Virus record (IMG/VR): IMGVR_UViG_3300008253_000110
Coordinates: 158-64,157 of that record
DNA length: 64,000 bases
From: a virus
Strand: one strand, 5' to 3'
Shown here in pieces: positions 2,251-47,600 of this stretch. The position numbers and the translations under genes were made by a program. The notes under the pieces were generated by a model. The model did not search any database. It was not told the DNA's origin and was given only the letters and a program-made list of their open reading frames with translations. Within the stretch, counting starts at the first letter, position 1; every line of letters begins with the position of its first letter.

Positions 2251-4398
2251 CTAGAATGTTCCACAATCAATGATAGTATCTCCTGTTATAACACCATCTG
2301 TCATTCTACCTGCAGAGTCTATAACCATTGGATCTTTATAATTAATCTCTTCCCATGCTGTTAATGTTGGGTCAGTATTACCAGGTGCATCAGTGGCAGT
2401 CATTGTCCAACCACCTGCAGCTTTATATACGAAATATTTAGTTACACCAGCAAGTACATGTCTAACAATAACTCCAGTAGAATAGTATGTGGTCATTCCA
2501 GAGGACCATAAGTCAGGAGTAGTTCCTATAGTTACTTTGTTTGCTAGAAAAGCTGCACCAGCAGGTGAAGAGGCCGTATTAAAACTAGATGCTCCAGCGA
2601 CATTTAATGTGCCTGCAGTAACTACATCACCATTTGCACCATCGACAGTAAAATGATCCACATATATAGTAGATTCCGAATATACCGTTCCAGTTCTAAC
2701 TTTGATTCCGCCTTCGAGTGTAGATAATCCACTAACATCTAATGTACCTTGAGTTACTACATCACCATTTGTACCAGATACAGTAAAATTATCAGTATCA
2801 ACTTGTATACCACCATCGAGTGTAGATAATCCACTAACATTTAATGTACCTTGGGTTACTACATCACCATCTAATGCAGCTACAGTAAACTTATCAGTAT
2901 TAACTTGTATACCACCATTAGCATTTAATAGACCAGTTAATGTAGTTACTCCAGTAACACCTAAAGTTCCTCCAACTGTTGTGTCTCCAGTAATTGATGC
3001 ATCTCCAGATAGTGACATATCACCAAAAGCAACATCACCCCAAGCGGCACTAAAGTCTTCAGGAGTGTATGTATACGCAGCTATTTGAATAGATGCCCCT
3101 GAACCATTATTGTACTGTGCCTCTGTAATACCTGAATAGGCTCTTTGTGTCCAATCTACAAGTGTTGGTACTCTTGTACTTGTAGCGACTGTTACTGCAG
3201 CAGGTGCCGTTGCAACCGAAGTATCGGGTTTAAATACAAACTTTGAAGATTGAATATCAAAACCAAAGAAACCAGTTTTGACTGCAGTACCATTACCATA
3301 ATCAAATGTAACCCCACGATCAAGACCATCATCAAGTACTAATGAACCTTCACCGAGATGCATTACAGGATCAGCTATAGTTACAACAGTAGATTCTACA
3401 GTAGTAGTAGTTCCCTCTACGGTTAGATCACCTGATACTAATAGATTAGTATTTACTTTAACTTGACCTAATGATCCCTGTGCAGCCTTACCATTAATTA
3501 CATCAACTTGAAGTTCAGTTGAGTTAAGTCTCATTTCTTCAGTATTAGCTATAAAGAATCTTAGTGTATCATCAACTGTAACGTGACTTGGATTTCCTGT
3601 AGAATCTCCTGCATTATCTTCTTCTGCGGTGATATATGTATCTTGGTCAGTATCTATTACACCACCAAGACCAGTCCAATTACCATCAACTACACCTTCA
3701 AATCTATGAGTACTTGTATTGTATCTAATTGAACCAGTCATTGCTTGAGTATCACTAACTGTTCCGGATGTTGCTATTTTTCTAGTAGTAGTAGGGCCTG
3801 CAGGAATTCGAAGAACACCTGTTCCACCTGTTCCAAGTGCAACATCACCAGCACCTTTAGGTGTTATAGTAATAGATTGATTAGCAGTTTGATCAAAAAG
3901 ACCACCTTCTGCATTTATTGTATTACCATCAATTTTAAGATTATCAACTATTGCCGAGCCATATACTTTAAGATGTTGGACTGTTGTTGTGTTACCAATA
4001 TCTAAATTACCAGCAAATTCCTGATTTGATGTAAATTTAATCTTACCGGTACCATTTGCACTTAATGTTAAATCACCATTACCATTTGTAATAGATATTG
4101 TATTCCCATCTAATGTAATATTATCTACATTAAGTACATCAATTTTTCTATCACTATCTACTATAATTGCTGAATCAGCAGTTAATGTACCATGTGTATG
4201 GTCTAGCATCTGGGTGAAATATTCTCCACCAATAATAAGATTATCTGAAGATGCTAATTCACTACCTATATATAATTTAGAGCCACCACCTGACTGAGCT
4301 CCTGTACCAAAAGTGTATGCTAATTCACCTTGTGATAATTGATTTGCAAGAGGTGCTGTAACACCTGCGGATTGTTTGATTTTTATTACTGTTGCCAT
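2251..4398 (-). CDS. Tail fibre / virion structural protein (715 aa)
   Basis: The N-terminus MATVIKIKQS...QGELAY and the C-terminal IDCGTF are typical of myovirus fibre-like proteins. It has G/T/D-rich beta repeats and three ~35-aa repeats (DxFTVxxxxGDVVTxGTLxV). Confidence 0.75.
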   Translation of the reverse strand: MATVIKIKQSAGVTAPLANQLSQGELAYTFGTGAQSGGGSKLYIGSELASSDNLIIGGEYFTQMLDHTHGTLTADSAIIVDSDRKIDVLNVDNITLDGNTISITNGNGDLTLSANGTGKIKFTSNQEFAGNLDIGNTTTVQHLKVYGSAIVDNLKIDGNTINAEGGLFDQTANQSITITPKGAGDVALGTGGTGVLRIPAGPTTTRKIATSGTVSDTQAMTGSIRYNTSTHRFEGVVDGNWTGLGGVIDTDQDTYITAEEDNAGDSTGNPSHVTVDDTLRFFIANTEEMRLNSTELQVDVINGKAAQGSLGQVKVNTNLLVSGDLTVEGTTTTVESTVVTIADPVMHLGEGSLVLDDGLDRGVTFDYGNGTAVKTGFFGFDIQSSKFVFKPDTSVATAPAAVTVATSTRVPTLVDWTQRAYSGITEAQYNNGSGASIQIAAYTYTPEDFSAAWGDVAFGDMSLSGDASITGDTTVGGTLGVTGVTTLTGLLNANGGIQVNTDKFTVAALDGDVVTQGTLNVSGLSTLDGGIQVDTDNFTVSGTNGDVVTQGTLDVSGLSTLEGGIKVRTGTVYSESTIYVDHFTVDGANGDVVTAGTLNVAGASSFNTASSPAGAAFLANKVTIGTTPDLWSSGMTTYYSTGVIVRHVLAGVTKYFVYKAAGGWTMTATDAPGNTDPTLTAWEEINYKDPMVIDSAGRMTDGVITGDTIIDCGTF
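2590..2910. repeat. Three ~35-aa internal repeats; two are near-identical at DNA level with a 105-bp period
   Basis: tcgagtgtagataatccactaacat.taatgtaccttg.gttactacatcacca occurs near 2713 and near 2817. Confidence 0.8.
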
Positions 4399-4468
4399 TG
4401 TTAGAACTCCTAATTCTATTTAATTTATATTTGTTTTATTGTGGTAGGGTTATCTGTCTTATATAAGA

Positions 4469-4704: not shown

Positions 4705-5109
4705 CTATATGAGTTTAGTTACATTACCTGAAAGTAATATATTTCCCTGCAAAATCCTTTCAACTATAGGTTGTTCTGTTGTTGAATTAAAACTCTTAAC
4801 CTCAATATCATAGATATAACGGCCTGGTTTCATTGTATTTGATACAGTATAAGGTAATCTAAGAATCACAATACCATTTATTGCATCAAGTACTTGAATA
4901 TTAAATTCATAAGATTTAATTGAATTAAAAGATTTTCTAATCTGACCTTTAATAACTGGATATGTACCCGGTGTCTGGAAAGCTGGATTATTATTAGCAT
5001 CCAAAACATATTCTCTAAGATCGAAAGGATTTAAGTCTTTATCGAATAAGGATACTGAGACTTCAAAATCAGTCCCCTGATCTATATTTAAATTACTAAT
5101 TGCCGCCAT
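4705..5109 (-). CDS. Conserved myovirus structural/adaptor-like protein (134 aa)
   Basis: The pattern MAAISNLNIDQGTDF...GRYIYDIEV...RILQG is one I recognise from small tail-region proteins of T4-like phages. A TATAAATA box lies upstream. Confidence 0.65.
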   Translation of the reverse strand: MAAISNLNIDQGTDFEVSVSLFDKDLNPFDLREYVLDANNNPAFQTPGTYPVIKGQIRKSFNSIKSYEFNIQVLDAINGIVILRLPYTVSNTMKPGRYIYDIEVKSFNSTTEQPIVERILQGNILLSGNVTKLI

Positions 5110-5144
5110 TGTGTGATTTCTCTTGTTATAGGTATTATTATTAC

Positions 5145-5152
5145 TATTTATA
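5145..5152 (-). promoter_or_regulatory. T4-type late promoter (TATAAATA)
   Basis: Exact match in intergenic DNA about 36 nt upstream of the ATG at 5109. Confidence 0.65.
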
Positions 5153-5187
5153 TATAATATGTTTCATTAGTTATCAACTGTCTTATG

Positions 5188-8477: not shown

Positions 8478-10616
8478 CTAATTGTTACTATAAGTCATAG
8501 TTATGGGGTCATATAGTTTATCTGCACTACCTTCACTAGCAGTAATTGTAGCAGAAACATCCCACGGTTTGGTACCAGAATATGGCCAATATGCTATTCT
8601 ATCTGGCGTTCCGAAGGTGGGTCCTGGCTTCCAATGGTAGCCTTCCGGTGCTTCAGAAGGGTCTTTTGAGCTGTCTGAGTTGTATTTCCAATAGGGTCCA
8701 AATCTTTCTGCTTCTAACGTTTCAGGGTCACTACGGAACAACCCTGTTTTAGCGTGTTCCGTAAGAAAATCTTTAAATTGCTGTGCTGTTCCCTTTGGAT
8801 TCATTTGTAACCATAATGCCCCCATACCAGTTATTTGAGGTGCAGCCATTGATGTACCAGTATACCGAGCCTTATAATCACCATTTGGATCAGCAGTTGG
8901 AGTTTCCCCTTGTCCTTCATAATAACCATATTCAGGTATCGATTGTGGCCAATGTGAATGCCGTAAGTAATTTTTATCATAGTATGCAAAGGAGGTGGCA
9001 CTCCATATACCTGTACCGGCTGCACATATATCCATACGAGGACCACGCACGCTGGTACTCCACATGTGCTCATCCCATTCTGGAATCCTTGTTTCATCAG
9101 TTAGATTTGCAACAATAATAGTATCATTACTCCAAGGAGATGCAGGACGACAGAAATATCGCTTTGTAAAGGCCGCATGACCATAATTTACTCCAGTATA
9201 ACCCCCAGGTGTTCCATCCTCCCATGGTACAAAAGTTCCTGACGCATCCTCTGCTGTTATAAAATAACTGTCCCATCTTTCATCATAATAGGGGGTACCA
9301 GGTGGTCCGACCTGAAACTGGTGGTTATTACCACCAGCTTTGCAACAAATTATACCTGCATCTGTTAACTGTTGTTGTTCAACATTTGACCAATTGACTT
9401 GATTTCCATGTTTTCCTCCAGCACCAATTAATCCGTATGTGTCAGGCCAGTTCTCCTGATGCCAAGGGAATGTTGGATCATCCCCTCCTCCTTCATTACC
9501 ACCACCTTCCCAATTTGGTGGGAGTCCCTCAAACCAATCCTGTATAAGAAAATTAGGATCCTCTACACCTTTATAAGCTATGGTCTGCATAAAGAACTGA
9601 TGTTTTTTTGAATAATCATCGTGTCCCAAACTACCCATTGGAGCGAATTGTCCAAAGCTTTGATTTACAATAGTAGGCCTGCCGGTATAAAGACTATCAG
9701 TTGGGTCATTCTTTCTTTCATGCCATAATCTGATAAGATCATAATAATGTGGATAGGCTATTGCTCCCTCACCATTTGGACCACCTATTAATTGTACATT
9801 ATAAATATGTGCATTTTTTGCCCAACCAAAAGTTTTACCTGCTGCAATACCCGCACAATGAGTTCCGTGCCCTTTATCCGATAAACTACTATTATCAGAC
9901 CAAGTTTCGGTATAATAGTTACTTGGCATACACCCAGGTATAATCTGGTTCCAGTCAAATTGTATATATCTTGAATTACCATCAGCATCTTGAAAATCAG
10001 CATGATCTACCATACCGTTATCCATAATAACAATATCAACACCAGTACCATCTAATGAATATTCCTCATCCCTAAGAGCTCCATCGTACCAAGTACTATA
10101 TCCTGCAAAGAACAAACCTCGATCCACTGAGTCCAAAACATGTCTTCTTAATCCCCAATTCTTAGAATGTGTATAGTAGTGATGGTAGGAAGAAGGAATA
10201 CCTCCCATTATAAAATGAACATCAGTATTTTTTGCACATATTTCATATGGGTTTTCATTAACTATCTCTACATCAAGAATTCTAGGATCTTTTGATAGTT
10301 CAGTTGCTTCTTCATTAGATAGTATATAAATGGTAATTCTATTATTGGCCTTTTTAGCATGGGCCACATCAACAATTCTATTCGGAATATGTATAGTACT
10401 GTCACTAGTGTCATTAGTAGTATCCCGTTCTAGCTCTAATTCTAGTTCAGCAATATCAATACCTTCTTCTGAAATTACCGCATATTTTCTTAAAGAAGGG
10501 ACAGGTTCAAAAATAGTATTTTCATCAATAATAGTTTTAATAATATTTTCATCAATAATAGGAGTAGCAGTATTTTTATCAACACCCTCATCCGACATAA
10601 TATCTTCATTTATCAT
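8478..10616 (-). CDS. Subtilisin-like S8 serine protease 3 (712 aa)
   Basis: Motifs VDIVIMDNG, HGTHCAGIAAG, AGGN and GTSMAAPQITG; a close paralogue of protease 1. Confidence 0.93.
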   Translation of the reverse strand: MINEDIMSDEGVDKNTATPIIDENIIKTIIDENTIFEPVPSLRKYAVISEEGIDIAELELELERDTTNDTSDSTIHIPNRIVDVAHAKKANNRITIYILSNEEATELSKDPRILDVEIVNENPYEICAKNTDVHFIMGGIPSSYHHYYTHSKNWGLRRHVLDSVDRGLFFAGYSTWYDGALRDEEYSLDGTGVDIVIMDNGMVDHADFQDADGNSRYIQFDWNQIIPGCMPSNYYTETWSDNSSLSDKGHGTHCAGIAAGKTFGWAKNAHIYNVQLIGGPNGEGAIAYPHYYDLIRLWHERKNDPTDSLYTGRPTIVNQSFGQFAPMGSLGHDDYSKKHQFFMQTIAYKGVEDPNFLIQDWFEGLPPNWEGGGNEGGGDDPTFPWHQENWPDTYGLIGAGGKHGNQVNWSNVEQQQLTDAGIICCKAGGNNHQFQVGPPGTPYYDERWDSYFITAEDASGTFVPWEDGTPGGYTGVNYGHAAFTKRYFCRPASPWSNDTIIVANLTDETRIPEWDEHMWSTSVRGPRMDICAAGTGIWSATSFAYYDKNYLRHSHWPQSIPEYGYYEGQGETPTADPNGDYKARYTGTSMAAPQITGMGALWLQMNPKGTAQQFKDFLTEHAKTGLFRSDPETLEAERFGPYWKYNSDSSKDPSEAPEGYHWKPGPTFGTPDRIAYWPYSGTKPWDVSATITASEGSADKLYDPITMTYSNN

Positions 10617-10628
10617 AATATATCCTTT

Positions 10629-12978: not shown

Positions 12979-13004
12979 TGTTATTTTACCTTAGTTGAGT
13001 TGTG

Positions 13005-16000
13005 TTAAGTATTCCACGGACCTTGTGGGCATTCAGGTTCATTACTACCCCAGTTAGCAAATTTCACTATAGTAGCTTTAGGTGAAGCTTCAATGTACAC
13101 GTTACCTAAAGCACCTCTAGTGATGCCATTTAAATTCATATTAGAAAGAGCCCCATTACCATCCTCACCATTATTTAAGAGCTGCCCATACCGAGAATCC
13201 ATAATTCCGCTAAGCTCATCATTAAATAAAGTAGTTAGTTGATCACTTAAGCCTGTGTTATGATCAGGTATACTTTTTAGTATGTTTAGATTGGTATTGT
13301 CCGTGAGGGTATTAAAAGAAACGGTAGTTTGTTCCGGCGTTACAATACTACTTGTTGTATTACAAACGGAAGTATACGGGTGGTTTTCTGGTTCTATTAT
13401 ACTCAAGATTGCAATACGCATATCTTTTATACGAATTGATGCATTTTGATAATTAAGATCTGTAATTTGGCACTGAGGATGAAATTTATCCATAATGGGG
13501 GCTCCATAAGCCCTTGCACAATTAGAAAAGTTAAAGAAATCTGAGACATCTTTTTCTAAGTAAAGAGATAAATTATTATTAGCCACTCCCCATTCACGCA
13601 GTTCATTTTGATTTGTGTTAGCCCAATTGGTATATTCAGCCGGAATAAGAGAAGTTGGTAACTGCATACTAGTCATGGTATTAGTAAGACAAGGGGGTGC
13701 TACCATATCAATAGTAAAGGGAATCTCTGGTATAGATTCAGTTAAGTAGTATTCACCCTCTTGAATCCCCGACTCATTATCACCAAAATAAATATTTATA
13801 CAGGTTGCCGCAGTACATTTTTGTGAAATCCCTGTACGATAATGGGTCTGAGATTCCCCATTCTTAAGATAGTTAGTATTTGGATAAGACAATACATGAT
13901 TGGTGCTACCATAGTTGAGTTCCGTAATCGGAAATGCTATAGGCTTTAGGTAATTAATGTTAAATGGATACCCTCCACCCGCTCCCAAACTAGGATTACA
14001 AATGTTAATATCACCTACCGCGGCGCATGCTGTTAATGCATCATCAACCTCCTTAAAAGTTGTTTGAAGCCAATAAGAAAAGTCAATACCCGTAACACAA
14101 GCCCATGACCCATCGTATGTTGACTCAGTCATTAACGAGTATTCTGGGTCCACACCATTAGGATCATTTGCACTAAGTGGACACCCTACAGTACATAGTG
14201 CACCTGCAGACTTTTCAAGGTAGTCAGGTAAGCTTGCAACATAATACTGATAAAGAAACCGGTCAGTTTCAATTTTGATATTATCACCTATTACGGCAGA
14301 ATTTATAACTATGTTTCCAGTATCTGGGTAGTAATAGACAGCTATTGCAATAGATGCCCCTGAACCATTATTGTACTGTGCCTCTGTAATACCTGAGTGA
14401 TATCTTTGTTTATAATCTTCGAAGGTTGGTACTCTTGTACCTGCAGCGACTGTGACCATATCATAATTACCAGAAACCGTCCAATCCTCCTGCTCATGGT
14501 CATTTCGCAGAAGAACCCCATTTTTATAAACTCTTATAAAGTCCTTATTTATTCGTGGGTGATCAAAGAACTCAGTTATCGAGCTGGCATACCCATAATC
14601 AGTCATTGCAATTGCTGGAAACACCGGAGCATAGGAAAGATAGACATAACTTCCTGAGTTTGTACCTACTACATATTCAACTGTATAATGTATTGCTACT
14701 TCAAGATCAAAACACTGACCATAATATGGATTTGATGGATCTCGTACTGTTCCACCTTTAGCATCAATTAAGGCCCCAGCTGTGAAATTTCCTGATCCGT
14801 CCGGTACTTGTACGCGTGCTCCGTTCGTAGTATAAGGATTAGGAAAGGATCTTCGTAGGTCTGATGTATAATCTTCACCGCTGGGATCACCTTCAGGCCA
14901 TGATGGTTCCTCAGTTTCACTAAATCCACACCATTCCTTCAAAGTAAGATCAGTACCACTTATAGTTACACTTGTACCTGGTATTGCCAATGGAGTACCG
15001 TTAGTATAACTTCCCCCCGAAAAAGTCAATTCCCCATTATTACCTGGAATAGCACCACACGTCTCTATACGACTTGCTTGATTATATGGAACAAATCCTA
15101 GTTGAAAGAAAATAGTATATTTAGTTCCCACCACAGGTTCAGAAACCATTTCTATTCGTTCATAAGTAATATCATATGTATATTTACAAGCATAAAACGA
15201 TATTAAATAATCATTTGAGAGTAGCTCAGAACCTGCAAAATTAGGCATATCAATTCTTACTTTAACTACTTTATCCTCATCCCCTAAGGCATAATCATAA
15301 TTAACTGGCTGAGTCATAACTTTACCGTCACCTGAACCACCAAAAATAACCTCATTGGCATTAATTTCAATATTTTCTAATGACCAAGCAACTTCATTAT
15401 TTTCAACTTGATAAAGATTATAAACTGGCCAAGCACCAGAAGGCATTGCAATTCTTGTTGCTGTACCTTCCGGTGTTGTTGAGGGCTGTGTAAGAGAGTG
15501 GTTAAAAGTAAAGGAATACTCAAAGACGTGATGATTGGGTTCACCATCTAATGAAGGAACAAGGACCTTTAATGATGTTATATTCTGTGTAAAATCTACA
15601 CACTTTAGTGAAGTTAGTTCTAAATTGACGTTATTAATACCCAATGGGTCACTAAAGCCAGATATTTTTTTAGAATTAGCTAAGGTAATATTATTAGTAT
15701 TTTGTACAATATTTGGTAAATTAGAAGATCCTAAAGTATAATCCTGCAGGTGAACTTCATTTGGAGTAGCTGTATCCCTATTACTAAGTCTGTTTTTGAT
15801 AGTAAGAAGAGATGCAGTATCTGGTAATACCATACCATCAGGGTCAGGTGATATAGTAAATGTTAAATGGGTAGCAATAGCAATAGGTAACATATTAGTC
15901 GTGGAATTAGTTATGTTACCAACAAAAAATGAAATAGTTTCTACAAGATCAATCCACTCACCGTTTACATCCTTTACAAAAAGGTTTTCTACTGTCGTTC

Positions 16001-20100: not shown

Positions 20101-23100
20101 GAATTGATAATAACTCATTGATATATAATCCTTCAGAATTAACCTTTAATCGTTCTGTTGAATGAGCACCGATAAGAACTGTATCAGTTAATACTGTTGA
20201 TCCTGGTAAACTACCAATGATCGTGTTATTCGAACCCGTTGTTATAGCAGTCCCTGCGTTGTAACCTATACCTATATTTCTTCTACCCTCAGCACTATTA
20301 CCTGAGGTAGTAGTAACTGAATTTAAACTCTCAGCACCTATAGCAGTGTTTTCAAAGCCATAGTTATTAGCCCATAAGCTACCATAACCAATAGCTACGT
20401 TTCTATAACCTGTAGTACAAGAACCTAACGCTCCGCCAGCACCAACAGCTACGTTGTTATTAGCAGTGCCGTCATCATTTGATAAAGCCGATGGACCAAG
20501 ACCAACAGAACCCCCGACACTCTTACCATCACTTAATTCATTAATAGAAGATGCTCCACCACCAGTACCACCAGTAAATAGTGCACCGTTGATATACAAA
20601 CCGGTATCATCAACTTTAATTCGCTCTGTTGCGCCAGCACCTATAAGAACAGTATCATTTAATGATGATGTTCCTAATAACTTACCAATAATGGTATTAT
20701 TGGAACCATTTACTAGGTTCTTCCCTGCAGAACCACCAATACCTATATTATCGTTTCCTATACTGTTAGATAGTAATGCCTTTTCACCAATAGCTGTGTT
20801 ATCACTCCCATTAGTGGTGCTTAATAAACTATGAGCACCAACAGCAACATTTCTAACTCCAATAGTCATACCCATTGCACTAGCTCTACCAATAGCAGTG
20901 TTCAGCTCTCCAACAGTAAGACTCTGTAAACTTGACATTCCAACAGCAGTGTTAAATAATGCCACTTCCTGTTGTTCTTCCGTATGTAAAGCTTGATCGC
21001 CTAATCCAAGTGAATGCGTAGATGCGTTATAATACGCGTCAGATAATTCATCAATACTAGTTGCTCCACCACCAGGACCAGTACCACCACTAAGAGATGA
21101 TAAATCTGCAGTTAAATCTGCTAAAGTTCCAGTTCTAGCTAGAGTTAAAGTTGTACCTGAAAGTGTAACTCCATCAACATATTCATTATCATGAGAATAA
21201 CCTAAGTGCTTATTTAATATATGATCCCCAAATGATATCTCATGTTCCTGTCTATTTACTGCATCAGACCAAAGTCTTTGGGCTTCGGCAGCTCGATTAT
21301 CGTGGCGAGAAGATTGGACAATTCCTAAATCCCTATAAAAGTCGTTCTCACTTGTCGCCATACCCTCCAAGCTTATAGGATGGATAATAAACTTTGTAAT
21401 ATAATGCCATCTAATATCTAACTCAAAATCATTGACAGCACCGGAGAAGTTCCCTTCATGGCTAGGATCGGTTGAAGGCCATGTGAATGACGTGTTAGTA
21501 GTGAGATAATCCTTAAATCTATTCCAAGGACCAACATTTGGAGAAAGGGGTTCTCCAATACCACCAGTAGGGCTTCCTTCAATCTCAAGAGTTGAGGCAT
21601 TAGCAAAGCTTCTAGGATTGTCATAATAATGTTCTTGGATACGAGGCCATTGTATATCTGCACGATAATGGACCCCACCCCAATTATTAATGGTCCCTAT
21701 ATCCGCTGAAAGATAATCAACAATACCCATTATTGGATTATCTTCATTAATTAATTCCGTATTATCTGAACCTAATAATAAGAATGCCCTCTCTAACGAT
21801 GGTAGAAGATATTTACTGAGAACTTTTTTGTACTCACGTTCCTCAGTTTGGTAGAGCCTATTAACTATAATGTCAGACCATTCATTTGCAATTTGTGACA
21901 TACCGACTGAATTAAGATGAGCAGAATCAGTCAGTCGTACATCCTGATAATCAAGGTCTAAATTAGGCCCAATTAACATTCTTTTGTGGAAGTCTGTTTT
22001 AGCATACAGTAAAGCCTGCTGATCGAAACCCCCTTCTTGATAAGCATTTTTGTAAGCGAGACTGTTAAAAATACTAAAAGCAACCATTGTACCCTTAATA
22101 ATATTTTTATCATAACCGGCTAAAGGATAGACCGTATTTTTTGGTACAAATGAAGTTCTTGCAAGAACAAATGATGTATCTGGACCGTAAACTCCTATAT
22201 TCTCTAGTTCACGGTATATACTTGCGAGGAGCGGATAGTATTCAAATTTAGTCATTGATGAATATGGGTCCTCAGGCTGAGTAGGCCAAAAATCATTATC
22301 AGCGTTTACTCCACGATTATCAGCTTCACCTTGACACCAGAATATGTAGTTATAATTAAAATTTTGTGTAGTAGCAAGATTTTTCGCATATTCGACTCTT
22401 TCCCATAACAATCTACTAGTGCTGTAATTAAAATCATCCTGTACGTGATTCTGAGGAGATGTTGCACTTATAGGAAAAGGTATTGTTGAGTCAGGCGACC
22501 ATTGTGTTATAGAAGAGCCCCCAACTGAAATATTAACAAAACGAACTTCATCATAACCCGTGGAGTTAATAATGTTATCACCTAATTCAGCAAGATATGA
22601 CCCACCACTACCTCCTCCTAAAGGAGCACCGGCATCACTATACCCAGCGGCCCATGTTGTTTCTAATACACCAGATGAAGGGTATGTATATGGATCTATA
22701 CCAATAGAATAACCATTATTGTACTCCTCAACTGTAACACCAGAGTAAGCTCTCTGAACATAGTCTACATCAGTTGGTATTCTACTTCCTCCAGCAACAG
22801 TAGTTTCTGTTGCCGGATTACCTAATCCCCATGTATTATCAGTAATACTAACCTGAGCAGGGCACTCAACCCATGATTCATTTAAACTCCACTTATGAAC
22901 TTTACCAATATTACCAGTGGTAGGTGTATAAGTGTATGATGGATCACCAAAAGCCGCTACATTTGATTGACCCATTACTAATATATAACATATACTAGTT
23001 GATACGATAAGGTCATTAGCCTCAGAACCATCAGGATTATTCCACTCTAGATTTCCTGTCGAGCCTACAGCTAATACCTTACCGACTGAACCAGTAGTAG

Positions 23101-26290: not shown

Positions 26291-26306
26291 GAATTCTAAT
26301 TATATA

Positions 26307-28937: not shown

Positions 28938-28940
28938 AGT

Positions 28941-29801: not shown

Positions 29802-29803
29802 TT

Positions 29804-30289: not shown

Positions 30290-30294
30290 ATTAA

Positions 30295-35684: not shown

Positions 35685-36742
35685 TCTCTATCAATTTCTA
35701 TCGTGGAACAATGTATACCTCCAGCAAATAACTTATTATGTCGTAGCTGTACAGGTATTACTTTATAACTATTTTCTTCAAGGACTTTAATAGTAGAGTG
35801 TGCATCATTATTTACTAGTATTGTATTCTCATCAATATTAAGCACATTAATATCCATACCCCCTTGTGTTGCAAATCCTTCTCCATCTTCTATAGACCTT
35901 TGAGGGAATATATATTTAAAATCATCAAACTCAGAAGGTAGTTGAGTTCTATAGTCTAACTCAGTAAGTATAGGATTAGCTAAGAATACTTTATCTGATA
36001 TAATATTTAGTAACCCATCTATGTGATTATCCGTAAATTCTACATAATATACCTTAATAGGTAGTACTCTCTTTAACCATTTGTATCCAAGATAATGGTT
36101 AATATTAGATATATTAATAACAAGAACATCTTTATATACAATACATTGAGCTGCATCAAAGGATATATCGTATCCTTTTAAATCTAATGACTTATAGTCT
36201 CTCTTGATTCTCCAATTATCAGTATCAGTAGAGTCTTTTTCTAATTTAGGTTCAGGGGCTTTGATCCATATCTTATCTAGTTTACGGAAAATATTATATA
36301 ATAACTTGGTTTCTTGTACACGACTTCGTATAAGTACTGGAGTTTCTATTAAGTAATCATGGCACATTAATGTTAAATCTCTAACATTACCTGCACCCGA
36401 CATATAAGTTGTGTAATTAAAAGTTTTTATAGGGATTAATGTATCTACAGACTCTGGTCTATGTACAATTATACCTAAATCTTCTAATGTAGTTGCTAGT
36501 GTATCTAAATCATCTTGTCTTTCTTTAAGTATATTGTGGTTTATAGATATATTTTCATTACCTGCATTGTATTGAGATACAGTAAGATTATCTCTAAAGA
36601 AATGTTTAAATGTAAAGTCAACCATCTTTGTAGGTATATTTAATTCTTTTCCTACAATTATTTCCTTTAATATAGCGAATGGGTTATTAATCATAATTCT
36701 GGTATATCCTCCTGTGGTTGTATTATAGTGATAGGTCTCCAT
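35675..36742 (-). CDS. Amidinotransferase (glycine/inosamine-phosphate amidinotransferase family, 355 aa; true start may be slightly downstream)
   Basis: VHRP, NVRD, FDAAQ, HIDG and GGIHCST match the Asp/His/Cys catalytic pattern of guanidino-group-modifying enzymes. Confidence 0.87.
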   Translation of the reverse strand: METYHYNTTTGGYTRIMINNPFAILKEIIVGKELNIPTKMVDFTFKHFFRDNLTVSQYNAGNENISINHNILKERQDDLDTLATTLEDLGIIVHRPESVDTLIPIKTFNYTTYMSGAGNVRDLTLMCHDYLIETPVLIRSRVQETKLLYNIFRKLDKIWIKAPEPKLEKDSTDTDNWRIKRDYKSLDLKGYDISFDAAQCIVYKDVLVINISNINHYLGYKWLKRVLPIKVYYVEFTDNHIDGLLNIISDKVFLANPILTELDYRTQLPSEFDDFKYIFPQRSIEDGEGFATQGGMDINVLNIDENTILVNNDAHSTIKVLEENSYKVIPVQLRHNKLFAGGIHCSTIEIDRECI

Positions 36743-40435: not shown

Positions 40436-40437
40436 TA

Positions 40438-41070
40438 TTAAACATTTAACATCATATGACTTTTTATAAATTTGTCAGCTTTCTCCGTAACCTTATCTTT
40501 ATCTGTAAGAGTCATTATCTCTTTAAAAATATTAGAAAATTTAGAATTTAGATGGGATACTCTAGCAATCTCATCTTTATAATTTAAATATTCTTCTAAC
40601 TTGTTAATAAGCTCTTCATCACCAGTCTCTAATATACTTAGGTATACTTCCTCTCTATTACCATCATATATAAAGTATCCTTTAGAATTTAGTTCATTAT
40701 TAAGGATAATCCATGAGTAGAGTGCTACACCTGAAATGGATGCAAGTTCGGGTGTTATTAAAGCTCTAATTCTCCTAATCTCTACCGATTTAACATTCCC
40801 AATATCCTCAGGGTCTATATCCTCTACAATAACTTCTGACGGTAAAACTTCAAGAGTTTGAAGAGTTTTAGGAATTATTATATTTTTACATCCGTCGTTT
40901 AAACTTGTTTTAATCCTTTCAGCTGCCATTACAGAAAGCTTAAGATATTGTTCATTTGTATTAACAATATTATCTAATGTATTAGAAGTAATACCCGTAA
41001 CTTGCCAATGTGTTCCACTATCTCTAACTAATGCTAATTCATATATCATTTGTTTTTTTCTCCAATTCAA
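40438..41070 (-). CDS. Hypothetical protein next to the Cys-rich gene (210 aa)
   Basis: In operon orientation; helical C-terminus; no motif recognised. Confidence 0.65.
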   Translation of the reverse strand: MNWRKKQMIYELALVRDSGTHWQVTGITSNTLDNIVNTNEQYLKLSVMAAERIKTSLNDGCKNIIIPKTLQTLEVLPSEVIVEDIDPEDIGNVKSVEIRRIRALITPELASISGVALYSWIILNNELNSKGYFIYDGNREEVYLSILETGDEELINKLEEYLNYKDEIARVSHLNSKFSNIFKEIMTLTDKDKVTEKADKFIKSHMMLNV

Positions 41071-41102
41071 TAATTCTTTTTTCTAATTAAACAATGGTAC
41101 TA

Positions 41103-41606
41103 TTATGCAGTGTAATTACACTCGCAATTATTATTACAAGTACAGACAGAATTACAAGAACAATCGGAATTACAAATGCAATCCTTCCTAACAATTTCAT
41201 ATTTTTCATAGATCGACCTAGCGTAAATGTCAGGACCCGCCCAATCAGTAGCATCAATCAGCTCCCCATCTCTATCAGCCATAAATCCTTGCCCACCGGT
41301 AACTTTGTCTACCATAAAGTATAATTCCTCTACATGATTATCCGTAATAATAGTAGATGTTGTATAAGGAGTTGGTTGGGTGACGGTAAAATCATGATAC
41401 CTATGTTCATTCCATCTAGTTAATTCTGCTCTAATCTTTTGTCTTACCTCTTCTAATATGTCAACGTTTATAGGAGCTCCTTCAGCAACATTAGCCGTAG
41501 TAGTTAAGGGTCTATTTGTTAAACACCCACCCCTTGATCCTAGACCGTCACGACCAGTACTGTAACCCTCCCAATTAGCCACACAATTGTGCTCTAGACA
41601 CGACAT
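41103..41606 (-). CDS. Cys-rich protein with a C-terminal (CxCNxx)4 repeat; candidate radical-SAM substrate (167 aa)
   Basis: Ends in DCICNSDCSCNSVCTCNNNCECNYTA and lies immediately downstream of a SPASM radical SAM gene (2-nt gap). Confidence 0.75.
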   Translation of the reverse strand: MSCLEHNCVANWEGYSTGRDGLGSRGGCLTNRPLTTTANVAEGAPINVDILEEVRQKIRAELTRWNEHRYHDFTVTQPTPYTTSTIITDNHVEELYFMVDKVTGGQGFMADRDGELIDATDWAGPDIYARSIYEKYEIVRKDCICNSDCSCNSVCTCNNNCECNYTA

Positions 41607-41608
41607 AA

Positions 41609-42748
41609 TTATCTCCCCTGATTCTTTATACTGGATACAACCGCTCTATCGATTTCTCCAAATGTTTTAAAATACCCACACTGATTATTTATATATCTGT
41701 CCGTCCATTGCTCCATGAAATTAGACTTCACTGAATTGTCTAGTGAGGATACAGGGCAAATCATACAAGTTGTTGCAACACAATCTGTACATGTTGTTGG
41801 TACAGTTTTAATATAATTTGCATATTTTTGAGTTTCAATACCTAAATTCTCGACCCATTCTTTATCCATTATAGATCCAGAGCCCATTGATTCTTTATTA
41901 GGGGAATATAACGAGCCATGACAAGCATAAGATTTTCCAGTTACATCTATAGCGACCATATTAGCACCAGAGGCGCAATGTACTTTTTGTTCATTACCAT
42001 CAAACCAAGAACATAAAAAATGATCATGTTTCTTATAAAACTCTATTTCCTTTTTTGCTACTCTAAGCATAGCTGACCGAAATGTAGCTACAGATTCTTC
42101 AAGTTCAACATCAGGTAACTCATTCACATAATCTATTGTAGGTGCGTATGTTACCGCCGCATGCCCATCTAATCTATCATACAAAGCTTTATAGGAATCC
42201 CATGTCTCTTCAATATCTTTCATAGATTCTAAAGGTACAGTAGCTTTCATAGATACATTTATATTTTTTGTAATTAAGTATTCTAGATTAGCTAATACTC
42301 TTTCTGTTGTATCTGTATTCACACCCTGAACTCTATACTTTTTATTAATAACTTCACCGTCCCAAGATACCTGGATTCTAAATTTATCTAGAGCAGACTG
42401 TGGTACGGAGTCTAAAACATAATCCAGTCGTTTTCTATCTAGAGCATTAGTATACATGTGAAAAGATACTAAATCATTATCCCCAAATGTATTCATTATA
42501 TCAACAATTAATTTACCATTTAATGTAGGCTCACCTCCCCAAAATGATATATTAAAAGCACCAAAACGTTGTATAAACCATTCTGACTCAAGAATTTGAT
42601 TAATTTTAGCTTTTAAAACCTCTATTTTTACATTACTCAGAGTCTGTTTGTTTGTTTTCAGTCCTTCAAAACAATATGTACAAGACATATTGCAAAGAGC
42701 TGTAGTTGTAATCTCAAACGAAAACTGATTTCTTTTATTATTAAGCAT
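41609..42748 (-). CDS. Radical SAM/SPASM peptide or protein maturase-like enzyme (379 aa)
   Basis: CNMSCTYC, FWGGEPTL and SWDG, plus a full SPASM array CASG..CHG..CTDC....CMIC..C. Confidence 0.92.
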   Translation of the reverse strand: MLNNKRNQFSFEITTTALCNMSCTYCFEGLKTNKQTLSNVKIEVLKAKINQILESEWFIQRFGAFNISFWGGEPTLNGKLIVDIMNTFGDNDLVSFHMYTNALDRKRLDYVLDSVPQSALDKFRIQVSWDGEVINKKYRVQGVNTDTTERVLANLEYLITKNINVSMKATVPLESMKDIEETWDSYKALYDRLDGHAAVTYAPTIDYVNELPDVELEESVATFRSAMLRVAKKEIEFYKKHDHFLCSWFDGNEQKVHCASGANMVAIDVTGKSYACHGSLYSPNKESMGSGSIMDKEWVENLGIETQKYANYIKTVPTTCTDCVATTCMICPVSSLDNSVKSNFMEQWTDRYINNQCGYFKTFGEIDRAVVSSIKNQGR

Positions 42749-42962
42749 TAAGTATATCCTCTAATATGGAATCTAACTTCTCATCTGTTATTTTTTCTTT
42801 TTGTGGTTCAATTACTCCGATAAGGGCATTTGCTAATTGGGATACTTTTAAAGCTTCTTCCTGGAATTGAGGTATATCAGATAAATGCTTTGCAGCTTCA
42901 ATAAGATTAAAGGAGGCATTGGCCAAATGTTTATTTACATCATTTATACTATCACGAATCAT
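42741..42962 (-). CDS. Small helical hypothetical protein between two radical SAM genes (73 aa)
   Basis: Overlaps both neighbours and is helical/acidic. Confidence 0.6.
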   Translation of the reverse strand: MIRDSINDVNKHLANASFNLIEAAKHLSDIPQFQEEALKVSQLANALIGVIEPQKEKITDEKLDSILEDILNA

Positions 42963-43941
42963 GGAATTCTCTCCTTATTATATCTCTAGGTATCAAAGGT
43001 AATATTTCTTTTGTTTTATCATAACAATATTTATATATATCACAAAGTTCGGGTATTGGTCCATTCGACTTAATTTGCTCATACATGCAACCTTTATGAC
43101 AATAATCCTTTACACGACAAGTTGAGCATTCAGGCATAGAGTAAAACTGATCTATCTTCTCAGCTGCTTCTTTATCCCCAGTAAATCTGTCACATGTAAC
43201 GGACTCTCCAGTCTCTGTTAATGCATAAAGATTTCTTCCTACACCACACCCTTCAGCTGTAAATCCTTTATAATGATATCTTAATATATCACGAAGCCAG
43301 GATAGTATAAAATTAGGCATATCCTCCGTAATATTATTTTTGTACCACTCATACATTTCATCAATACCGATCTGGAGAAGTTTAACTGATTCCGGAGTCC
43401 ATGTCCCTCTATCTCTAACTAATGTTAATCCAGGATTCATTCCAAAATTTCGAGTTATATATAAATGATTTTCTAGTAAATTATAGTCAGATCCGGATAT
43501 CATAGAATGACATTTTAATCCAGAAAACAATTCTCGTTTAGCGTATAATACATCTAAAGAAGATAGATTGGAATCTCTAATAGGTCTTCTATCGTTTTGC
43601 CATAAGCCATCGAATGATATTGATATCTTAACATTTTCTTTTAAAAGATAATCTAGTATTCCAGGTGTTAGGGATATCCCATTAGTAGGCATAGCTAAGG
43701 CATAATTATCATCAACTTTCTTCATTGTTGATATAACTGACTTAACCATCTTCATCTGGAGAAGAGGCTCACCCCCGAAAAAGTCTATTTGTATAAGATC
43801 ATTAGGGTGCTCAAGTCTAAGTTCTTTAAATTTATTTATTATAGAATCATGAGATAAAGTATTCTTAGACCACTTATCCATTCCACAATATGAGCAGTTT
43901 AAATTACACCCTTCTGATAATAGAACATTTAATGTCTTAAT
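42952..43941 (-). CDS. Radical SAM/SPASM protein; the ORF track starts at 43881, but the reading frame extends upstream, probably from ATT at 43941
   Basis: In-frame upstream codons read IKTLNVLLSEGCNLNCSYCGMDK and contain the CxxxCxxC motif; then FFGGEPLL, SFDG, CGVG..CD..CSTC....CHKGC..C. In-frame stop at 43948-43950. Confidence 0.85.
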   Translation of the reverse strand: MKTLNVLLSEGCNLNCSYCGMDKWSKNTLSHDSIINKFKELRLEHPNDLIQIDFFGGEPLLQMKMVKSVISTMKKVDDNYALAMPTNGISLTPGILDYLLKENVKISISFDGLWQNDRRPIRDSNLSSLDVLYAKRELFSGLKCHSMISGSDYNLLENHLYITRNFGMNPGLTLVRDRGTWTPESVKLLQIGIDEMYEWYKNNITEDMPNFILSWLRDILRYHYKGFTAEGCGVGRNLYALTETGESVTCDRFTGDKEAAEKIDQFYSMPECSTCRVKDYCHKGCMYEQIKSNGPIPELCDIYKYCYDKTKEILPLIPRDIIRREFHDS

Positions 43942-44675
43942 AACGAATTAACCTCTAATATACTTTTTACTAAATCCATAGAGTATACAGAGGCAAAAGA
44001 CTCAGCATCTTTAGGAAGACACGGCCCACCAAATCCATACTTACCATCTGGACCAGGAACATCAAAAAGACCTGTACCCATCCGTGGTACTCGCTCTAGT
44101 ACAGATACTATTTCTTTGTAATCTATACCCTCTATCCCACATACTTTATATATCTCGTTTAAATATGTTATTTTTAGGGCGTTGAAGGTGTTCATAGTAT
44201 ACTTTAATATACAAGCTGTTTTTATATCTGTTAGATGTACATTCTTTGTGGAAACCTCAGAATATTTCTTAAATATAGCTAAAGTATGCTGTGATGTAAC
44301 AATAGAATTTGATCCTATTATTAATACATGAGGGTTAATGAAATCATGGTGGGCCGTTGCTCTAGACAAGAATTCCGGTACACATACTATATTATTAGAG
44401 TACCCTTTAATTAGGTCTGGAAGCACAGTAGATTTTATTATTATAAGACCAGAGTACTCAAGTTCTTTTAGATTCTCAAGTGCATTTAATAGTATTGTTG
44501 CTTCTATTTTACCGTTTACTGTAGGTGTTGGGAGGCATACAAATATACATTCTGTATCCATCATATCTTCGATAGATACATCATTATATAAAGGGTCCGA
44601 TATTATTTTATCTGTTTTGGTAAACCCTTTATCAACTGCTTTCCCAACAAAACCATAACCAAGAATACCAATCAT
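43929..44675 (-). CDS. UDP-glucose/GDP-mannose 6-dehydrogenase family protein (248 aa, lacking the C-terminal domain)
   Basis: Motifs GYGFVG, FVCLPTP, IIKSTV, PEFL, K...NTF.A.KI...NE and GFGGPCLPKD. Confidence 0.9.
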   Translation of the reverse strand: MIGILGYGFVGKAVDKGFTKTDKIISDPLYNDVSIEDMMDTECIFVCLPTPTVNGKIEATILLNALENLKELEYSGLIIIKSTVLPDLIKGYSNNIVCVPEFLSRATAHHDFINPHVLIIGSNSIVTSQHTLAIFKKYSEVSTKNVHLTDIKTACILKYTMNTFNALKITYLNEIYKVCGIEGIDYKEIVSVLERVPRMGTGLFDVPGPDGKYGFGGPCLPKDAESFASVYSMDLVKSILEVNSLLRH

Positions 44676-47600
44676 TAGGTAATAACTACCTCTATTAACT
44701 CAGTACCTTCAGAAGTTTTAGATACTACAGCCTTTCCTATAATAGAACCAAATGAAGGGTTATTATTAGAAACCCCTGTACCTCTCCCAGATGATATAAT
44801 AATGTCACCTTTATCAACTGGTCCTTCTACTTTAACAGGTACTCTTCCTCTTAGTGCAACAGTAGCTATAAATTCACCTGAACAACCAGAATTCATTAAG
44901 TATGCAGGATTTTCAGAAACGACTCCTACGATTCTAGAATCCATTATCCTATCTGATTCTGTAACCTCAAATTCACCACCTAAGGATAATACTGTACCAA
45001 CTTCATATTGTTTATCAGCAACATAGTTTTCCGCTAAATCTGCATATCGGGCTTTAGTTGCTGTACCAGTCATTACACCACAACTAAAAGCCCCTGAAGC
45101 ATCTCTGTATACTATGGTATTTGCTGTATTTATTGAAGTAGCATCAGACTGTATAGTATAGTCCCCACCCGCAGATCCAGATACAGACACCCCGTTATTA
45201 TTTGTGGAATGCATAACCACCGATTTTACATAGGCACCAGAGGTATCAGTCCCTAGTGCTATCGTCTTTCCAGTAGTATCAATTGAATACGTCGCCTCAT
45301 CGGAACTATTATTCATTGTTACCTCGCCGGTCACATCTCCGGTTAACTTAATAGTATGGTCCCAGGCTGTAAAATCGAGTGTACCATCATCAGTTTGATA
45401 TGTTACAGCAATACCCTTTTCAGTATTACCACTAACCATAGCACCAACAACATCTTCTATTACCTCATCGTTCAATGATGTATTAATATCTATATTAGTT
45501 TCATCTAAGTCAATTGTAGTAGCATCTGATGTAATTTTTCCTGTTAACGTAATAGTTGGTTTTCCGGCAATGATATGGATATCATTAACCCAATATGTAT
45601 CAACCACCATAGGACTACCAGCATTATATTGTTCTGTAGTAATTATGTTACCATTAGATTTTGCATTGTTAAGATAATCTTTTTCTGTAGGTATTCTAGT
45701 GCTACCCGTTATTTGCATACTTTCATATTCTACGTCAACACCTTCATGTTTGTCATGAGTTGCTGGGGATTGAACAAGCATAGACTTGATAACATCCTGT
45801 GTCCATAACTTAAATGTAGTAGGTTTGAGTTCATTATGCTGTGTATAATTTCCAGTAGAATCAAATACAGTATCCTCACCTATTTGTAATTCTTTAGTGA
45901 ATTTAGAAATACCCTGAAGGGCTACATCAGATGTTACTATTTGTTGATCAATATTAGCAAGTTTTAAATACCTTAAATCTGTATCCTCAGTGCCATATAT
46001 AAATTTAGTACCTTTGATATGTCCATATACATCTAATTTAGCAGAAGCATCTGCTGTCTTACCTATACCTACAGAACCATTTGTTGAAATGCGCATTTGT
46101 TCAACAAGAGGAGCATCAGGGTCAGCTACTATTTCAGTAGCTGTAGGCTCCCTAAAGAATAACATATTATCGTTACTAGAAATACCAGCAGTTGATAATG
46201 TTAAAGGTCTAGCTATAGCATCAGCACTTTTCTGACTAAACATATCAAACATACCATCTCTTCTAAGATAGACATTGTCTAATGTTTCGCCTTTTGATGA
46301 TTCATATAAAGTATTTAATATAGTTATTAAAGTATTAATACCAGTTTCTGGACTACCATCACCAGTTACTGGATCCTGTCGAGTGGTGGAGTTCGCATTA
46401 ATTATGTCTATACCAGTCCAAGATGGATCTCGAAAATATCGTAGTTTAGAAGTTTCATAGACTTCCTGGGTAACTAATCCAGTAAGAAAATCATTTTCAG
46501 TAGGTACTCTAGTTAGTAGTACTCCAACATTGGATTGGTATGACGCACCTCCTTCATTCCATCTTGCTGATGCGCCTATTCTTTCATAAAAATTTGCATA
46601 TCCGTGATCATATCCTTGAGCGGCCGACGACAATGAACTATTTTGCCATGTACCTGCTTGTATTTTACTTAGTGGAGCTCCGTGCTCATTTAGTGAAAAA
46701 TCAACTTTAGATTTAATTGAATTTAGCGCGTCCGTAATATTGTCTGAAAGATTAACATAACCCATTGGGTGATCTGTATTATTGCCAGATGTACCTGCAT
46801 TATTAGGAGTATCTGGTATTGTTTGTAGAAACTCTGCTTCACCAAAACCAATATTTGTTCTATGCTCCATTAAAAGTGTAGTTATATTTTTATCATCAGG
46901 TAGTGTTGCAGTATTAACATGGTTAAGACTTAAAAGATTTCCATTACCTTGATAAGTATCTATTTTTTTAATAGCATCTTCTAGGCAAACAAATCTACTT
47001 TTTTGGTAGCCATTTGCTACGGTGGCAATATTTAATGGGTATTCAGTATCATCAAATAATAAGTAATTAGGAACAGAGCCTCTTTGAATTTGGAAAAGCT
47101 CATTAATACCCCCACCAAGTGTTTGTGCTGTTGTATCAAGATGTATGGATGACGAACCTGAACCACCACCTAATATATCTATTCTCAGCTGATTTACTTC
47201 TGATACTATATCAGGTACTACAGAATCACTTAAAGTTATGAATTGATTTAAAGAAGTCGATTCATTTGGTATTACACCATATATATTAGTCTCAGTAATT
47301 TTACCTAGCGAGCTATTAGTAATATGAATTCTTAAATCATTTACATTGTTAATCCCACCTAGATTAGACCCTTTAATAATTAATATTTGTCCACTAATAT
47401 AGGATGAGGGGGAGTTATCACCCGAGGATGCAATTTCACAAGTGTAAAAAAATCTTTGAGTCCGTGATATGGTGTTACCAGCCTGAATAATTGTCGCAGA
47501 TGGGATAGATTCTGATACCTCCCCAATTGGGTCAGAACAAGTGTTGGTACTTGATGCAACACAATCTGGATCAAAATTAGGATTTGCATATATAGTTATG

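What the first reader, a model, noticed from the sequence alone, without database searches (positions are those of the whole stretch)
3061..46515. A ~40-aa motif shared by four unrelated structural proteins, with a 48-bp identical core
Seen in sequence: TRVPTLVDWTQRAYSGITEAQYNNGSGASIQIAAYTY (715-aa fibre, ~3065-3185); TRVPTFEDYKQRYHSGITEAQYNNGSGASIAIAVYYY (1392-aa metalloprotease, ~14325-14440); SRIPTDVDYVQRAYSGVTVEEYNNGYSIGIDPYTY (2691-aa fibre, ~22683-22790); TRIPTEKDYLNNAKSNGNIITTEQYNAGSPMVVDTYW (1042-aa fibre, ~45590-45705); and a weaker TRVPTENDFLTGLVTQEVY (~46450-46515). Bases 3088-3135 are identical to 14349-14396. The flanks differ in each host protein. In the 715-aa protein the motif appears to interrupt the fibre segment KF.F.PD...E.FS...GDVAF as I recall it from related phage proteins. 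Inference: a mobile mini-domain or tag spread by recombination, possibly a docking site for a small accessory protein, a recognition sequence for the island's modifying enzymes (conserved R, T, D, S, Y, N), or a site for the phage proteases.
Basis: partly seen in the sequence, partly recalled or inferred. Interest (0 to 1): 0.88.

Follow-up and report, generated by a model that had tools for sequence, protein, structure and literature searches.

The report
Portable mini-domain in phage fibre proteins
An uncultured marine T4-like phage has copied one 49-residue peptide module, found only in its own small lineage, in frame into at least four unrelated tail and baseplate proteins; this is a very small example of the domain shuffling that shapes phage host-recognition proteins, and its function is unknown.

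Summary
A module of about 49 aa (strand, R-[VI]-P-T-x-x-D-aromatic helix, T-x-x-Q-Y-N-x-G helix, strand) occurs in the 715-, 1392-, 2691- and 1042-aa virion proteins. The 1042-aa protein also has a degenerate copy. The 48-nt identity is exact.

In the 715-aa fibre the module is a clean insertion: 32 homologous fibre segments lack it. In the 2691-aa fibre it lies between SGNH/SASA esterase blocks I and II.

Copies differ at many synonymous sites (dN/dS 0.4-0.7). They have no terminal repeats, target duplications or consistent RNA fold, so the peptide is what selection keeps.

A profile search of 1.84 billion proteins found it only in this phage and one orthologue. Pfam, PHROGs, PDB, cultured phages and prokaryote genomes gave nothing. 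Three related contigs carry copies in partly different host proteins.

AlphaFold predicts strand-helix-helix-strand (pLDDT about 80 in fibre context), with no fold match.

Best reading: a lineage-specific plug-in mini-domain spread by recombination within the hypervariable host-recognition cluster. It is probably a surface binding module. Links to the radical SAM island or the proteases are unsupported. The scan had not found this on other DNA. This is a new variant of a known kind, of moderate interest.

The parts
3061..3207 (-). Copy 1: 49-aa insertion (residues 398-446) in the 715-aa fibre protein (gene 2251-4398)
   Evidence: The alignment with 32 homologous fibre segments shows a clean 49-column gap in all but the orthologues. 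HMM score 90 bits. AF2 pLDDT is about 80 over the insert, read as E-E-H-H-H-E-E.
14313..14465 (-). Copy 2: module at residues 907-957 of the 1392-aa metzincin-bearing protein (gene 13005-17183)
   Evidence: HMM score 91 bits. 59% aa identity to copy 1 over 59 aa. The host region has no homologue in 5.8 billion clusters, so the insertion boundaries are untestable.
3088..3135 (.). 48-nt run identical to 14349-14396 (encodes S-G-I-T-E-A-Q-Y-N-N-G-S-G-A-S-I)
   Evidence: Exact and maximal. The same 48 nt are also unchanged in the p715 orthologue of L015 and differ by 1 nt in G001.
14349..14396 (.). Partner of the 48-nt identical run
22667..22813 (-). Copy 3: module at residues 816-864 of the 2691-aa giant fibre (gene 17183-25258), inside its SGNH/SASA-like esterase domain
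   Evidence: HMM score 87 bits. It lies between GQSN (residue 763) and GGSSI (residue 913). The block I-II spacing is 150 aa against 104 in E. coli NanS and about 82 in the Pfam profile.
21929..23041 (-). SGNH/SASA-like esterase domain of p2691 that hosts copy 3 (blocks GQSN 763, GGSSI 913, QGEAD 976, DSAH 1111)
   Evidence: Pfam SASA scores 23.9 bits, just under the cut-off of 24.8.
45572..45727 (-). Copy 4: module at residues 693-744 of the 1042-aa tail protein (gene 44675-47803)
   Evidence: HMM score 89 bits. 35% identity to copy 2. The G001 orthologue shares only the N-terminus (26%) and C-terminus (91%) and has no module.
46409..46540 (-). Copy 5: degenerate copy at about residues 422-465 of the same 1042-aa protein (T-R-V-P-T-E-N-D-F, shortened first helix, then V-T-Q-E-V-Y)
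   Evidence: The HMM gives only 5-6 bits on the first half. It is accepted on the pattern enrichment.
36542..36664 (-). Unproven candidate copy near the N-terminus of a 355-aa island protein (gene 35675-36742; weak arginine-deiminase-like Pfam hit)
   Evidence: HMM score 7-10 bits, i-Evalue 0.01-0.14. Pfam ADI E 0.002.
48028..48054 (-). S-R-V-P-T-C-K-D-L at the C-terminal end of the VrlC/DUF4815 protein: a resemblance, probably not a copy
   Evidence: The conserved VrlC end in G001 reads S-V-I-P-Q-V-R-D-L-R. HMM score 0.5 bits.

Best explanation
The motif is a self-contained mini-domain of about 49 residues. It consists of a beta strand, a helix opened by a P-T-x-x-D-aromatic capping box, a short second helix T-x-x-Q-Y-N-x-G ending in a glycine turn, and a return strand, so its two ends lie side by side. 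That geometry lets it be spliced into a surface loop without breaking the host fold. Within the hypervariable host-recognition cluster of this T4-like marine myophage lineage it has been copied in frame, at different times, into unrelated tail, fibre and baseplate proteins. The likely route is illegitimate recombination followed by gene conversion; this route is inferred. The copies are kept by selection on the peptide, not on the DNA; this is shown. Its most likely role is an exposed accessory binding patch added to host-recognition proteins. A shared weak host-surface (glycan) contact is my first choice. This would be comparable in logic to the Ig-like domains scattered over phage virion proteins. 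The role is inferred only. I put the structural and evolutionary part at about 0.8 and the binding role at about 0.35.
For: The module is shared by four otherwise unrelated proteins, with similarity ending at the module edges. It is a clean 49-aa insertion in p715 against 32 homologues. It lies between catalytic blocks I and II of an esterase domain, with excess spacing. Identical residues are encoded by different codons between copies, with dN/dS 0.39-0.68 between paralogous copies. The module sits in the best conserved block of p715 (89-98% identity against 67-68% overall) across three phages. There are no terminal inverted repeats, no target duplication and no consistent RNA fold. Host proteins differ between close relatives: the wedge-like 1464/1401-aa ORFs carry a divergent copy in G001-G003, while the window's 535-aa orthologue has none, and p1042 has copies where the G001 orthologue has none. 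Graded divergence (dS 0.23 to 0.88) indicates spread at several times. AF2 gives strand-helix-helix-strand twice, with pLDDT about 80 in fibre context. All carriers are baseplate or fibre proteins downstream of VrlC, the region described as the host recognition cluster of pelagi- and cyanomyophages (PMC7029224). The precedent of accessory domains proposed to bind cell-surface carbohydrate weakly comes from Fraser et al. 2006, as cited in PMC8718954.
Against: No binding partner or ligand is shown. The insertion is proven in only one host (p715), is merely consistent in p2691, and is untestable in p1392 and p1042 because no homologues exist. The motif-only AF2 model is poor (pLDDT 50). Most conserved residues can be explained as helix caps and turns, so they do not point to a binding site. 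The exposed positions of helix 1 differ between copies in the same genome, which weakens the idea of one common ligand. Only about four closely related genomes are known.
Confidence: 0.55

Rival explanations
1. Docking tag. Every carrier displays the same small module so that one phage-encoded partner (a small accessory protein, a branch fibre or an assembly chaperone) can bind all of them, much as dockerins let many enzymes bind one scaffold or as LtfB hangs on LtfA in branched fibres.
For: One module occurs on several proteins of the same tail apparatus. The core 16 residues are identical at the DNA level in two copies. Branched fibres offer a precedent (PMC4728585). A 152-aa gene just upstream of p715 is conserved at 87% in G001.
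Against: The surface positions of helix 1 and the last strand differ strongly between copies in one genome. There is no concerted evolution: the p1392 copy is no nearer to the window's own p715 copy than to those of the relatives. A site inside an enzyme domain is an odd place for a dock. No partner has been identified, and complexes cannot be predicted with the tools available.
Confidence: 0.2
2. Passenger element. The module is a selfish or neutral in-frame insertion, comparable to Rickettsia palindromic elements. It spreads at the DNA level and is merely tolerated in loops, with no function of its own.
For: It sits in loops of unrelated hosts. Copy number and hosts differ between close relatives. 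Degenerate copies exist. The window holds many recombining repeats.
Against: There are no terminal repeats, palindromes, target duplications or stable folds. Amino acids are conserved through synonymous change, with dN/dS below 1. The module is as conserved as the core fibre segment among orthologues.
Confidence: 0.12
3. Processing or modification tag. The module is recognised by the phage's S8 or metzincin proteases, or by enzymes of the radical SAM and sugar island, which cut or modify the virion proteins that carry it.
For: The genes lie close together in the same cluster. All known carriers also hold the island. A possible weak copy lies in an island enzyme.
Against: Co-occurrence is explained by common descent of four near-identical islands. 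G001 keeps the p715 module, yet the S8 and p1392 block is absent from the syntenic site. The module has no Cys or other known radical-SAM peptide target. The N-x-S/T sequon is not conserved among copies. By Pfam the island reads as a sugar-nucleotide pathway.
Confidence: 0.08
4. There is no homology. The copies are convergent helix-capping motifs or chance matches in repetitive fibre sequence.
For: P-T-x-x-D-aromatic and T-x-x-Q are generic helix starts. The VrlC end shows that a look-alike can arise independently.
Against: HMM scores are 75-91 bits for five copies. DNA identity is 70-85% over 91-123 nt. The pattern is enriched about 200-fold.
Confidence: 0.03

Closest known systems
Promiscuous Ig-like domains (I-set, FN3, Big_2) on phage virion proteins (Fraser et al. 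2006, as cited in PMC8718954)
   Same: An accessory module found on many unrelated structural proteins. It is exchanged horizontally, is dispensable for the host fold, and is proposed to make weak contacts with the cell surface.
   Different: The module here is half the size (49 aa), is predicted as strand-helix-helix-strand rather than a beta sandwich, and has no Pfam match. It is inserted inside domains rather than appended at ends, and is confined to one rare phage lineage.
Mosaic cassette exchange in the host recognition cluster of pelagimyophages and cyanomyophages (PMC7029224)
   Same: The location is the same, downstream of VrlC. The neighbours are the same: fibres, sugar or LPS genes and radical SAM cassettes. 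Turnover between close relatives is the same.
   Different: That description concerns whole genes and gene cassettes. Here the exchanged unit is 147 nt inside genes.
Dockerin modules and branched-fibre docking regions (LtfA/LtfB of phage DT57C, PMC4728585)
   Same: A small shared module, or a defined internal region, that lets several proteins attach to a common partner. The module also has two short helices in tandem with a repeated T-x-x-[DQ]-Y pattern.
   Different: There are no calcium-binding loops, no Pfam dockerin match and no known partner. The surface residues are not conserved between copies.
In-frame mobile DNA insertions such as Rickettsia palindromic elements (from my own knowledge)
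   Same: Short insertions of about 100-150 nt that land in frame in unrelated genes and are tolerated in surface loops.
   Different: There is no palindrome or terminal repeat, and selection acts on the peptide rather than on the DNA.

Membership tests
Ig-like accessory domains of phage virion proteins | Match to Ig-like Pfam families (I-set, FN3, Big_1/2) or a beta-sandwich fold of 80-100 aa | tested here: not met
   No Pfam hit even at E 5 on the isolated modules. The length is 49 aa. AF2 gives two helices between strands. The only weak link is a 21-position match (E 1e-5, summed over 5 repeats) to I-T-A-x-Q-I-N-N-G-S stretches of repeat proteins.
Ig-like accessory domains of phage virion proteins | Presence on several unrelated structural proteins, absent from their homologues | tested here: met
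Dockerin | Duplicated 22-residue calcium-binding loop-helix (Pfam dockerin) | tested here: not met
   No Pfam match. No D-x-D-x-D-G type loop is visible in the alignment.
In-frame mobile DNA element (RPE-like) | Palindromic or terminal inverted repeat structure, with DNA better conserved than the peptide | tested here: not met
   The longest inverted repeat is 8 nt. Fold z-scores are +0.3, +0.8, -2.7 and +0.7. Identical residues are encoded with synonymous differences. dN/dS is 0.4-0.7.
Intein / mini-intein | N-terminal Cys/Ser/Thr, C-terminal His-Asn followed by Cys/Ser/Thr, and at least about 130 aa | tested here: not met
   The insert is 49 aa, begins A-P-A-A and ends Y-T-Y-T-P before E-D-F.
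Self-splicing intron or translational bypass element | Conserved RNA structure, or a stop codon with matched take-off and landing codons | tested here: not met
   No Rfam match in the window. There is no stop codon in any copy and no consistent fold.
SGNH/SASA esterase (host domain of copy 3, not the module) | Blocks I GQSN, II GG[ST], III QGE[AS]D and V DxxH, in order | tested here: met
   Residues 763, 913, 976 and 1111. NanS of E. coli shows the same first three blocks.
SGNH/SASA esterase (host domain of copy 3, not the module) | Pfam PF03629 at or above the gathering score | tested here: not met
   23.9 bits against a cut-off of 24.8, with only profile positions 74-134 aligned. No PDB or database homologue was found by sequence.

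The most novel reading that the evidence does not exclude
The module is a portable address label. By carrying it, otherwise unrelated tail proteins become clients of one phage-encoded machine: a docking partner, a maturation protease, or a modifying enzyme of the adjacent radical SAM and sugar island. The phage could then re-equip its host-recognition apparatus simply by pasting 147 nt into a new gene.
Probability: 0.12. Interest if true: 0.8.

Novelty: new variant of a known kind. Interest (0 to 1): 0.45.

Why it matters
Phage host-range evolution is usually described as the exchange of whole genes or large C-terminal domains. Here the unit of exchange is a 49-residue fold dropped into loops, including a loop of an enzyme domain and the middle of a conserved fibre repeat. 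If it proves to be a binding patch or a docking tag, it would be a natural, minimal, loop-insertable module of the kind phage engineers try to design. If it is only a tolerated passenger, it still marks permissive insertion sites in a fibre segment that is very common in marine metagenomes (411 relatives at E <= 0.001 in one search) and has no solved structure.

Tried and rejected
- **Known domain.** Pfam and PHROGs were scanned on whole proteins and on isolated modules. PDB sequence and profile searches were run. Foldseek and VIA-align were run on the AF2 model, with best E 0.65 and best Z 2.6. The ESM Atlas gave no usable hit. Nothing was found.
- **Wide distribution.**
  - The HMM search against 1.84 billion representatives returned only own proteins and P0002 below 1e-10.
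  - tblastn against 50,697 phage records found nothing.
  - IMG/VR gave one locus.
  - JGI metagenome contigs gave none, and GTDB genomes gave none.
  - A broader alignment could not be used for a collection scan.
- **DNA-level element.** There are no inverted repeats, no target duplication and no RNA fold.
- **Positive selection after copying.** My hand count suggested dN > dS between the p715 and p1392 copies. The Nei-Gojobori estimate gave 0.68, so I dropped the idea.
- **Recent gene conversion as the sole cause of the 48-nt identity.** This explanation is weakened, because the same 48 nt are also nearly invariant among the p715 orthologues.
- **Insertion boundaries in the other hosts.**
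  - The p2691 esterase piece and p1392 residues 760-1100 have no detectable homologues.
  - The p1042 homologies begin downstream of the module.
  - Only a block-spacing comparison with NanS was possible.
- **Similarity beyond the module** between p1392 and p1042 is negligible.
- **VrlC C-terminal look-alike.** I treat it as the conserved VrlC end, not a copy.
- **Tool limits.** Relatives cannot be drawn for a virus record.
Full report
**Context.** All genes of the window lie on the - strand.
- The gene order is baseplate genes, a 1959-aa VrlC/DUF4815 protein, then fibres interleaved with sugar-nucleotide and radical SAM genes.
- The best cultured match of VrlC is Pelagibacter phage Mosig at 33%, followed by T4-like cyanophages.
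- This is the layout described as the hypervariable 'host recognition cluster' downstream of VrlC in pelagi- and cyanomyophages, which there too contains radical SAM cassettes (PMC7029224).
- The 'genome' held is only this 65-kb contig, with a CheckV completeness estimate of 38%.

**Observation.**
- A regex and six-frame scan found the stated peptides at the stated places.
- All-against-all BLASTP shows the four host proteins share only this stretch: p1392/p715 59% over 59 aa, and p1392/p2691 46% over 56 aa. Beyond the module the similarity is negligible.
- The 48-nt identity is exact and maximal. It is one of 12 exact repeats of 30 nt or more in the window. All the others join paralogous fibre or S8 genes.
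- The pattern R[VI]PT..D is about 200-fold enriched over shuffles both here and in a relative.
- The same phage was assembled independently in another sample, so this is not an assembly artefact.

**Insertion.**
- A search with p715 residues 300-520 returned 411 marine relatives.
- An alignment of 32 distinct fibre segments shows a clean 49-column gap between K-P-D-x-S and E-D-F-S-x-x-W-G-D. Only p715 and its two orthologues fill it.
- In p2691 the module lies between esterase blocks I (GQSN, residue 763) and II (GGSSI, residue 913). That spacing is 150 aa, against 104 in E. coli NanS and about 82 in the Pfam SASA profile. This is consistent with an insertion but does not prove one, because no homologue of this domain could be found.
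- For p1392 and p1042 the boundaries cannot be tested.

**Peptide or DNA.**
- Between the p715 and p2691 copies, identical residues are often encoded by different codons.
- Nei-Gojobori dN/dS between paralogous copies is 0.39-0.68, with dS running from 0.23 (p1392 against p715-type) to 0.88. The copies are therefore of different ages and the peptide is under purifying selection.
- There are no terminal inverted repeats, no flanking duplications and no consistent RNA structure. There is no Rfam match.
- Among p715 orthologues the module lies in the best conserved block: 89-98% identity against 67-68% overall.
- The 48-nt core is also almost invariant among those orthologues. The differences between the p715 and p1392 copies cluster in the first helix and the last strand.

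**Distribution.**
- A 49-position profile was searched against 1.84 billion representative proteins. Below 1e-10 it found only p1392, p2691 and P0002, which is an orthologue of p715.
- The weak hits near 1e-5 are repeat proteins with I-T-A-x-Q-I-N-N-G-S stretches.
- Cultured phages, JGI metagenome contigs and GTDB genomes gave nothing.
- IMG/VR holds three related contigs, G001-G003. A 7-kb contig from the same sample as G003 carries P0002.
- In these relatives the island proteins are 73-97% identical to the window's (most 89-97%), while the baseplate proteins are 32-73%.
- The relatives carry the p715 copy and a divergent copy (S-L-R-I-P-T-E-N-D ... Q-Y-D-Q-G ... D-I-P-T-Y) in a 1464/1401-aa baseplate-wedge-like protein. 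The window orthologue of that protein is 535 aa and has no module.
- They also carry half-copies in a 3319-aa fibre and in the VrlC-like giants.
- Conversely, p1392, p2691 and the S8 cluster have no counterpart in G001. The G001 orthologue of p1042 lacks the module.
- The set of host proteins therefore changes between close relatives.

**Structure.**
- AF2 on the seven-copy alignment alone is of low confidence (pLDDT 50) but gives strand, helix, helix, strand.
- In the p715 context with 38 sequences the insert reaches pLDDT of about 80: two short strands, a helix over P-T-L-V-D-W-T-Q-R-A, a helix over T-E-A-Q-Y, and two return strands.
- Weak VIA alignments (Z 2-2.6) pair model residues of about 40-75 with residues of about 130-139 and skip the insert. 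This would fit a loop-out between strands of a small host sheet, but it is only suggestive.
- No fold match was found.
- From general knowledge of helix capping, P-T-x-x-D-aromatic and T-x-x-Q are capping boxes and N-x-G is a C-cap. Most invariant residues are therefore likely structural. This is an inference.

**Interpretation.**
- Shown: a lineage-restricted, protein-selected module that is an insertion in at least one host and sits in different hosts in different relatives.
- Inferred: it spread by recombination within a repeat-rich, recombining cluster, and it is a loop-insertable fold with adjacent ends.
- The function is not shown. I favour an exposed accessory binding patch on host-recognition proteins, by analogy with the promiscuous Ig-like domains (Fraser 2006, via PMC8718954). 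My reason is that all carriers are fibre, baseplate or envelope-degrading proteins, and one copy sits near the substrate side of an esterase.
- The docking-tag rival (precedent PMC4728585) is weakened by the variable surface of helix 1 between copies in one genome.
- The modification or protease-tag idea has no support beyond proximity. The island reads as a sugar pathway plus radical SAM enzymes, and co-occurrence cannot be separated from common descent.

**Verdict.** The 'mobile mini-domain' reading is supported and the functional guesses remain open. I classify it as a new variant of a known kind (promiscuous accessory modules and mosaic fibres), found in about four uncultured genomes. Interest is moderate.

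Noticed in passing
window 26816-44675 versus G001 (L006-L009), G002, G003: The sugar and radical SAM island proteins are 73-97% identical between the window and three IMG/VR relatives (most 89-97%). The flanking baseplate proteins are only 32-73% identical. Either the island was exchanged recently or it evolves far more slowly than its surroundings.
   Followed up: partly
window 5188-26300: A block of about 21 kb is absent from the syntenic position in G001, where the orthologue of 4708-5163 directly follows the orthologue of 26816-27460. The block holds four S8 proteases, the 181-aa gene, the metzincin protein p1392, the 2691-aa fibre and the 160-aa gene.
   Followed up: partly
window 48004-53883 and 55525-57132 versus G001 15938-28945 and 9701-14092: There are large size differences between orthologues. 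VrlC is 1959 aa here and 4336 aa in G001/G002 (2723 aa in G003). The baseplate-wedge-like protein is 535 aa here and 1464/1401 aa in the relatives.
   Followed up: no
window 2929-3441 (p715 residues 320-490): The fibre segment D-R-G ... G-F-F-G-x-D ... F-x-F-x-P-D ... F-S-G is very common in marine metagenomes: 411 proteins at E <= 0.001 in one capped search, sometimes twice per protein. It has no Pfam family and no PDB relative.
   Followed up: partly
window 3-2201 (733-aa fibre, residues 264-292): A Pfam AcrIIA4 hit of 31.4 bits lies above the cut-off of 27, but with no stretch passing on its own and only 29 residues aligned. It is probably spurious in repetitive fibre sequence.
   Followed up: no
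window 1-25258: Fibre genes p733 and p2691 share many DNA repeats, with exact runs up to 64 nt and families of 110-230 nt at 66-87% identity. The S8 paralogues share runs up to 52 nt. This indicates active intragenomic recombination or recent duplication.
   Followed up: partly
window 1-64000: The whole window has no tRNA genes and no Rfam family at gathering score.
   Followed up: yes
window 35675-36742: A 355-aa island protein has a weak arginine-deiminase-like C-terminus (Pfam ADI, E 0.002) and no orthologue in G001. Its N-terminus holds a sub-threshold look-alike of the module.
   Followed up: partly
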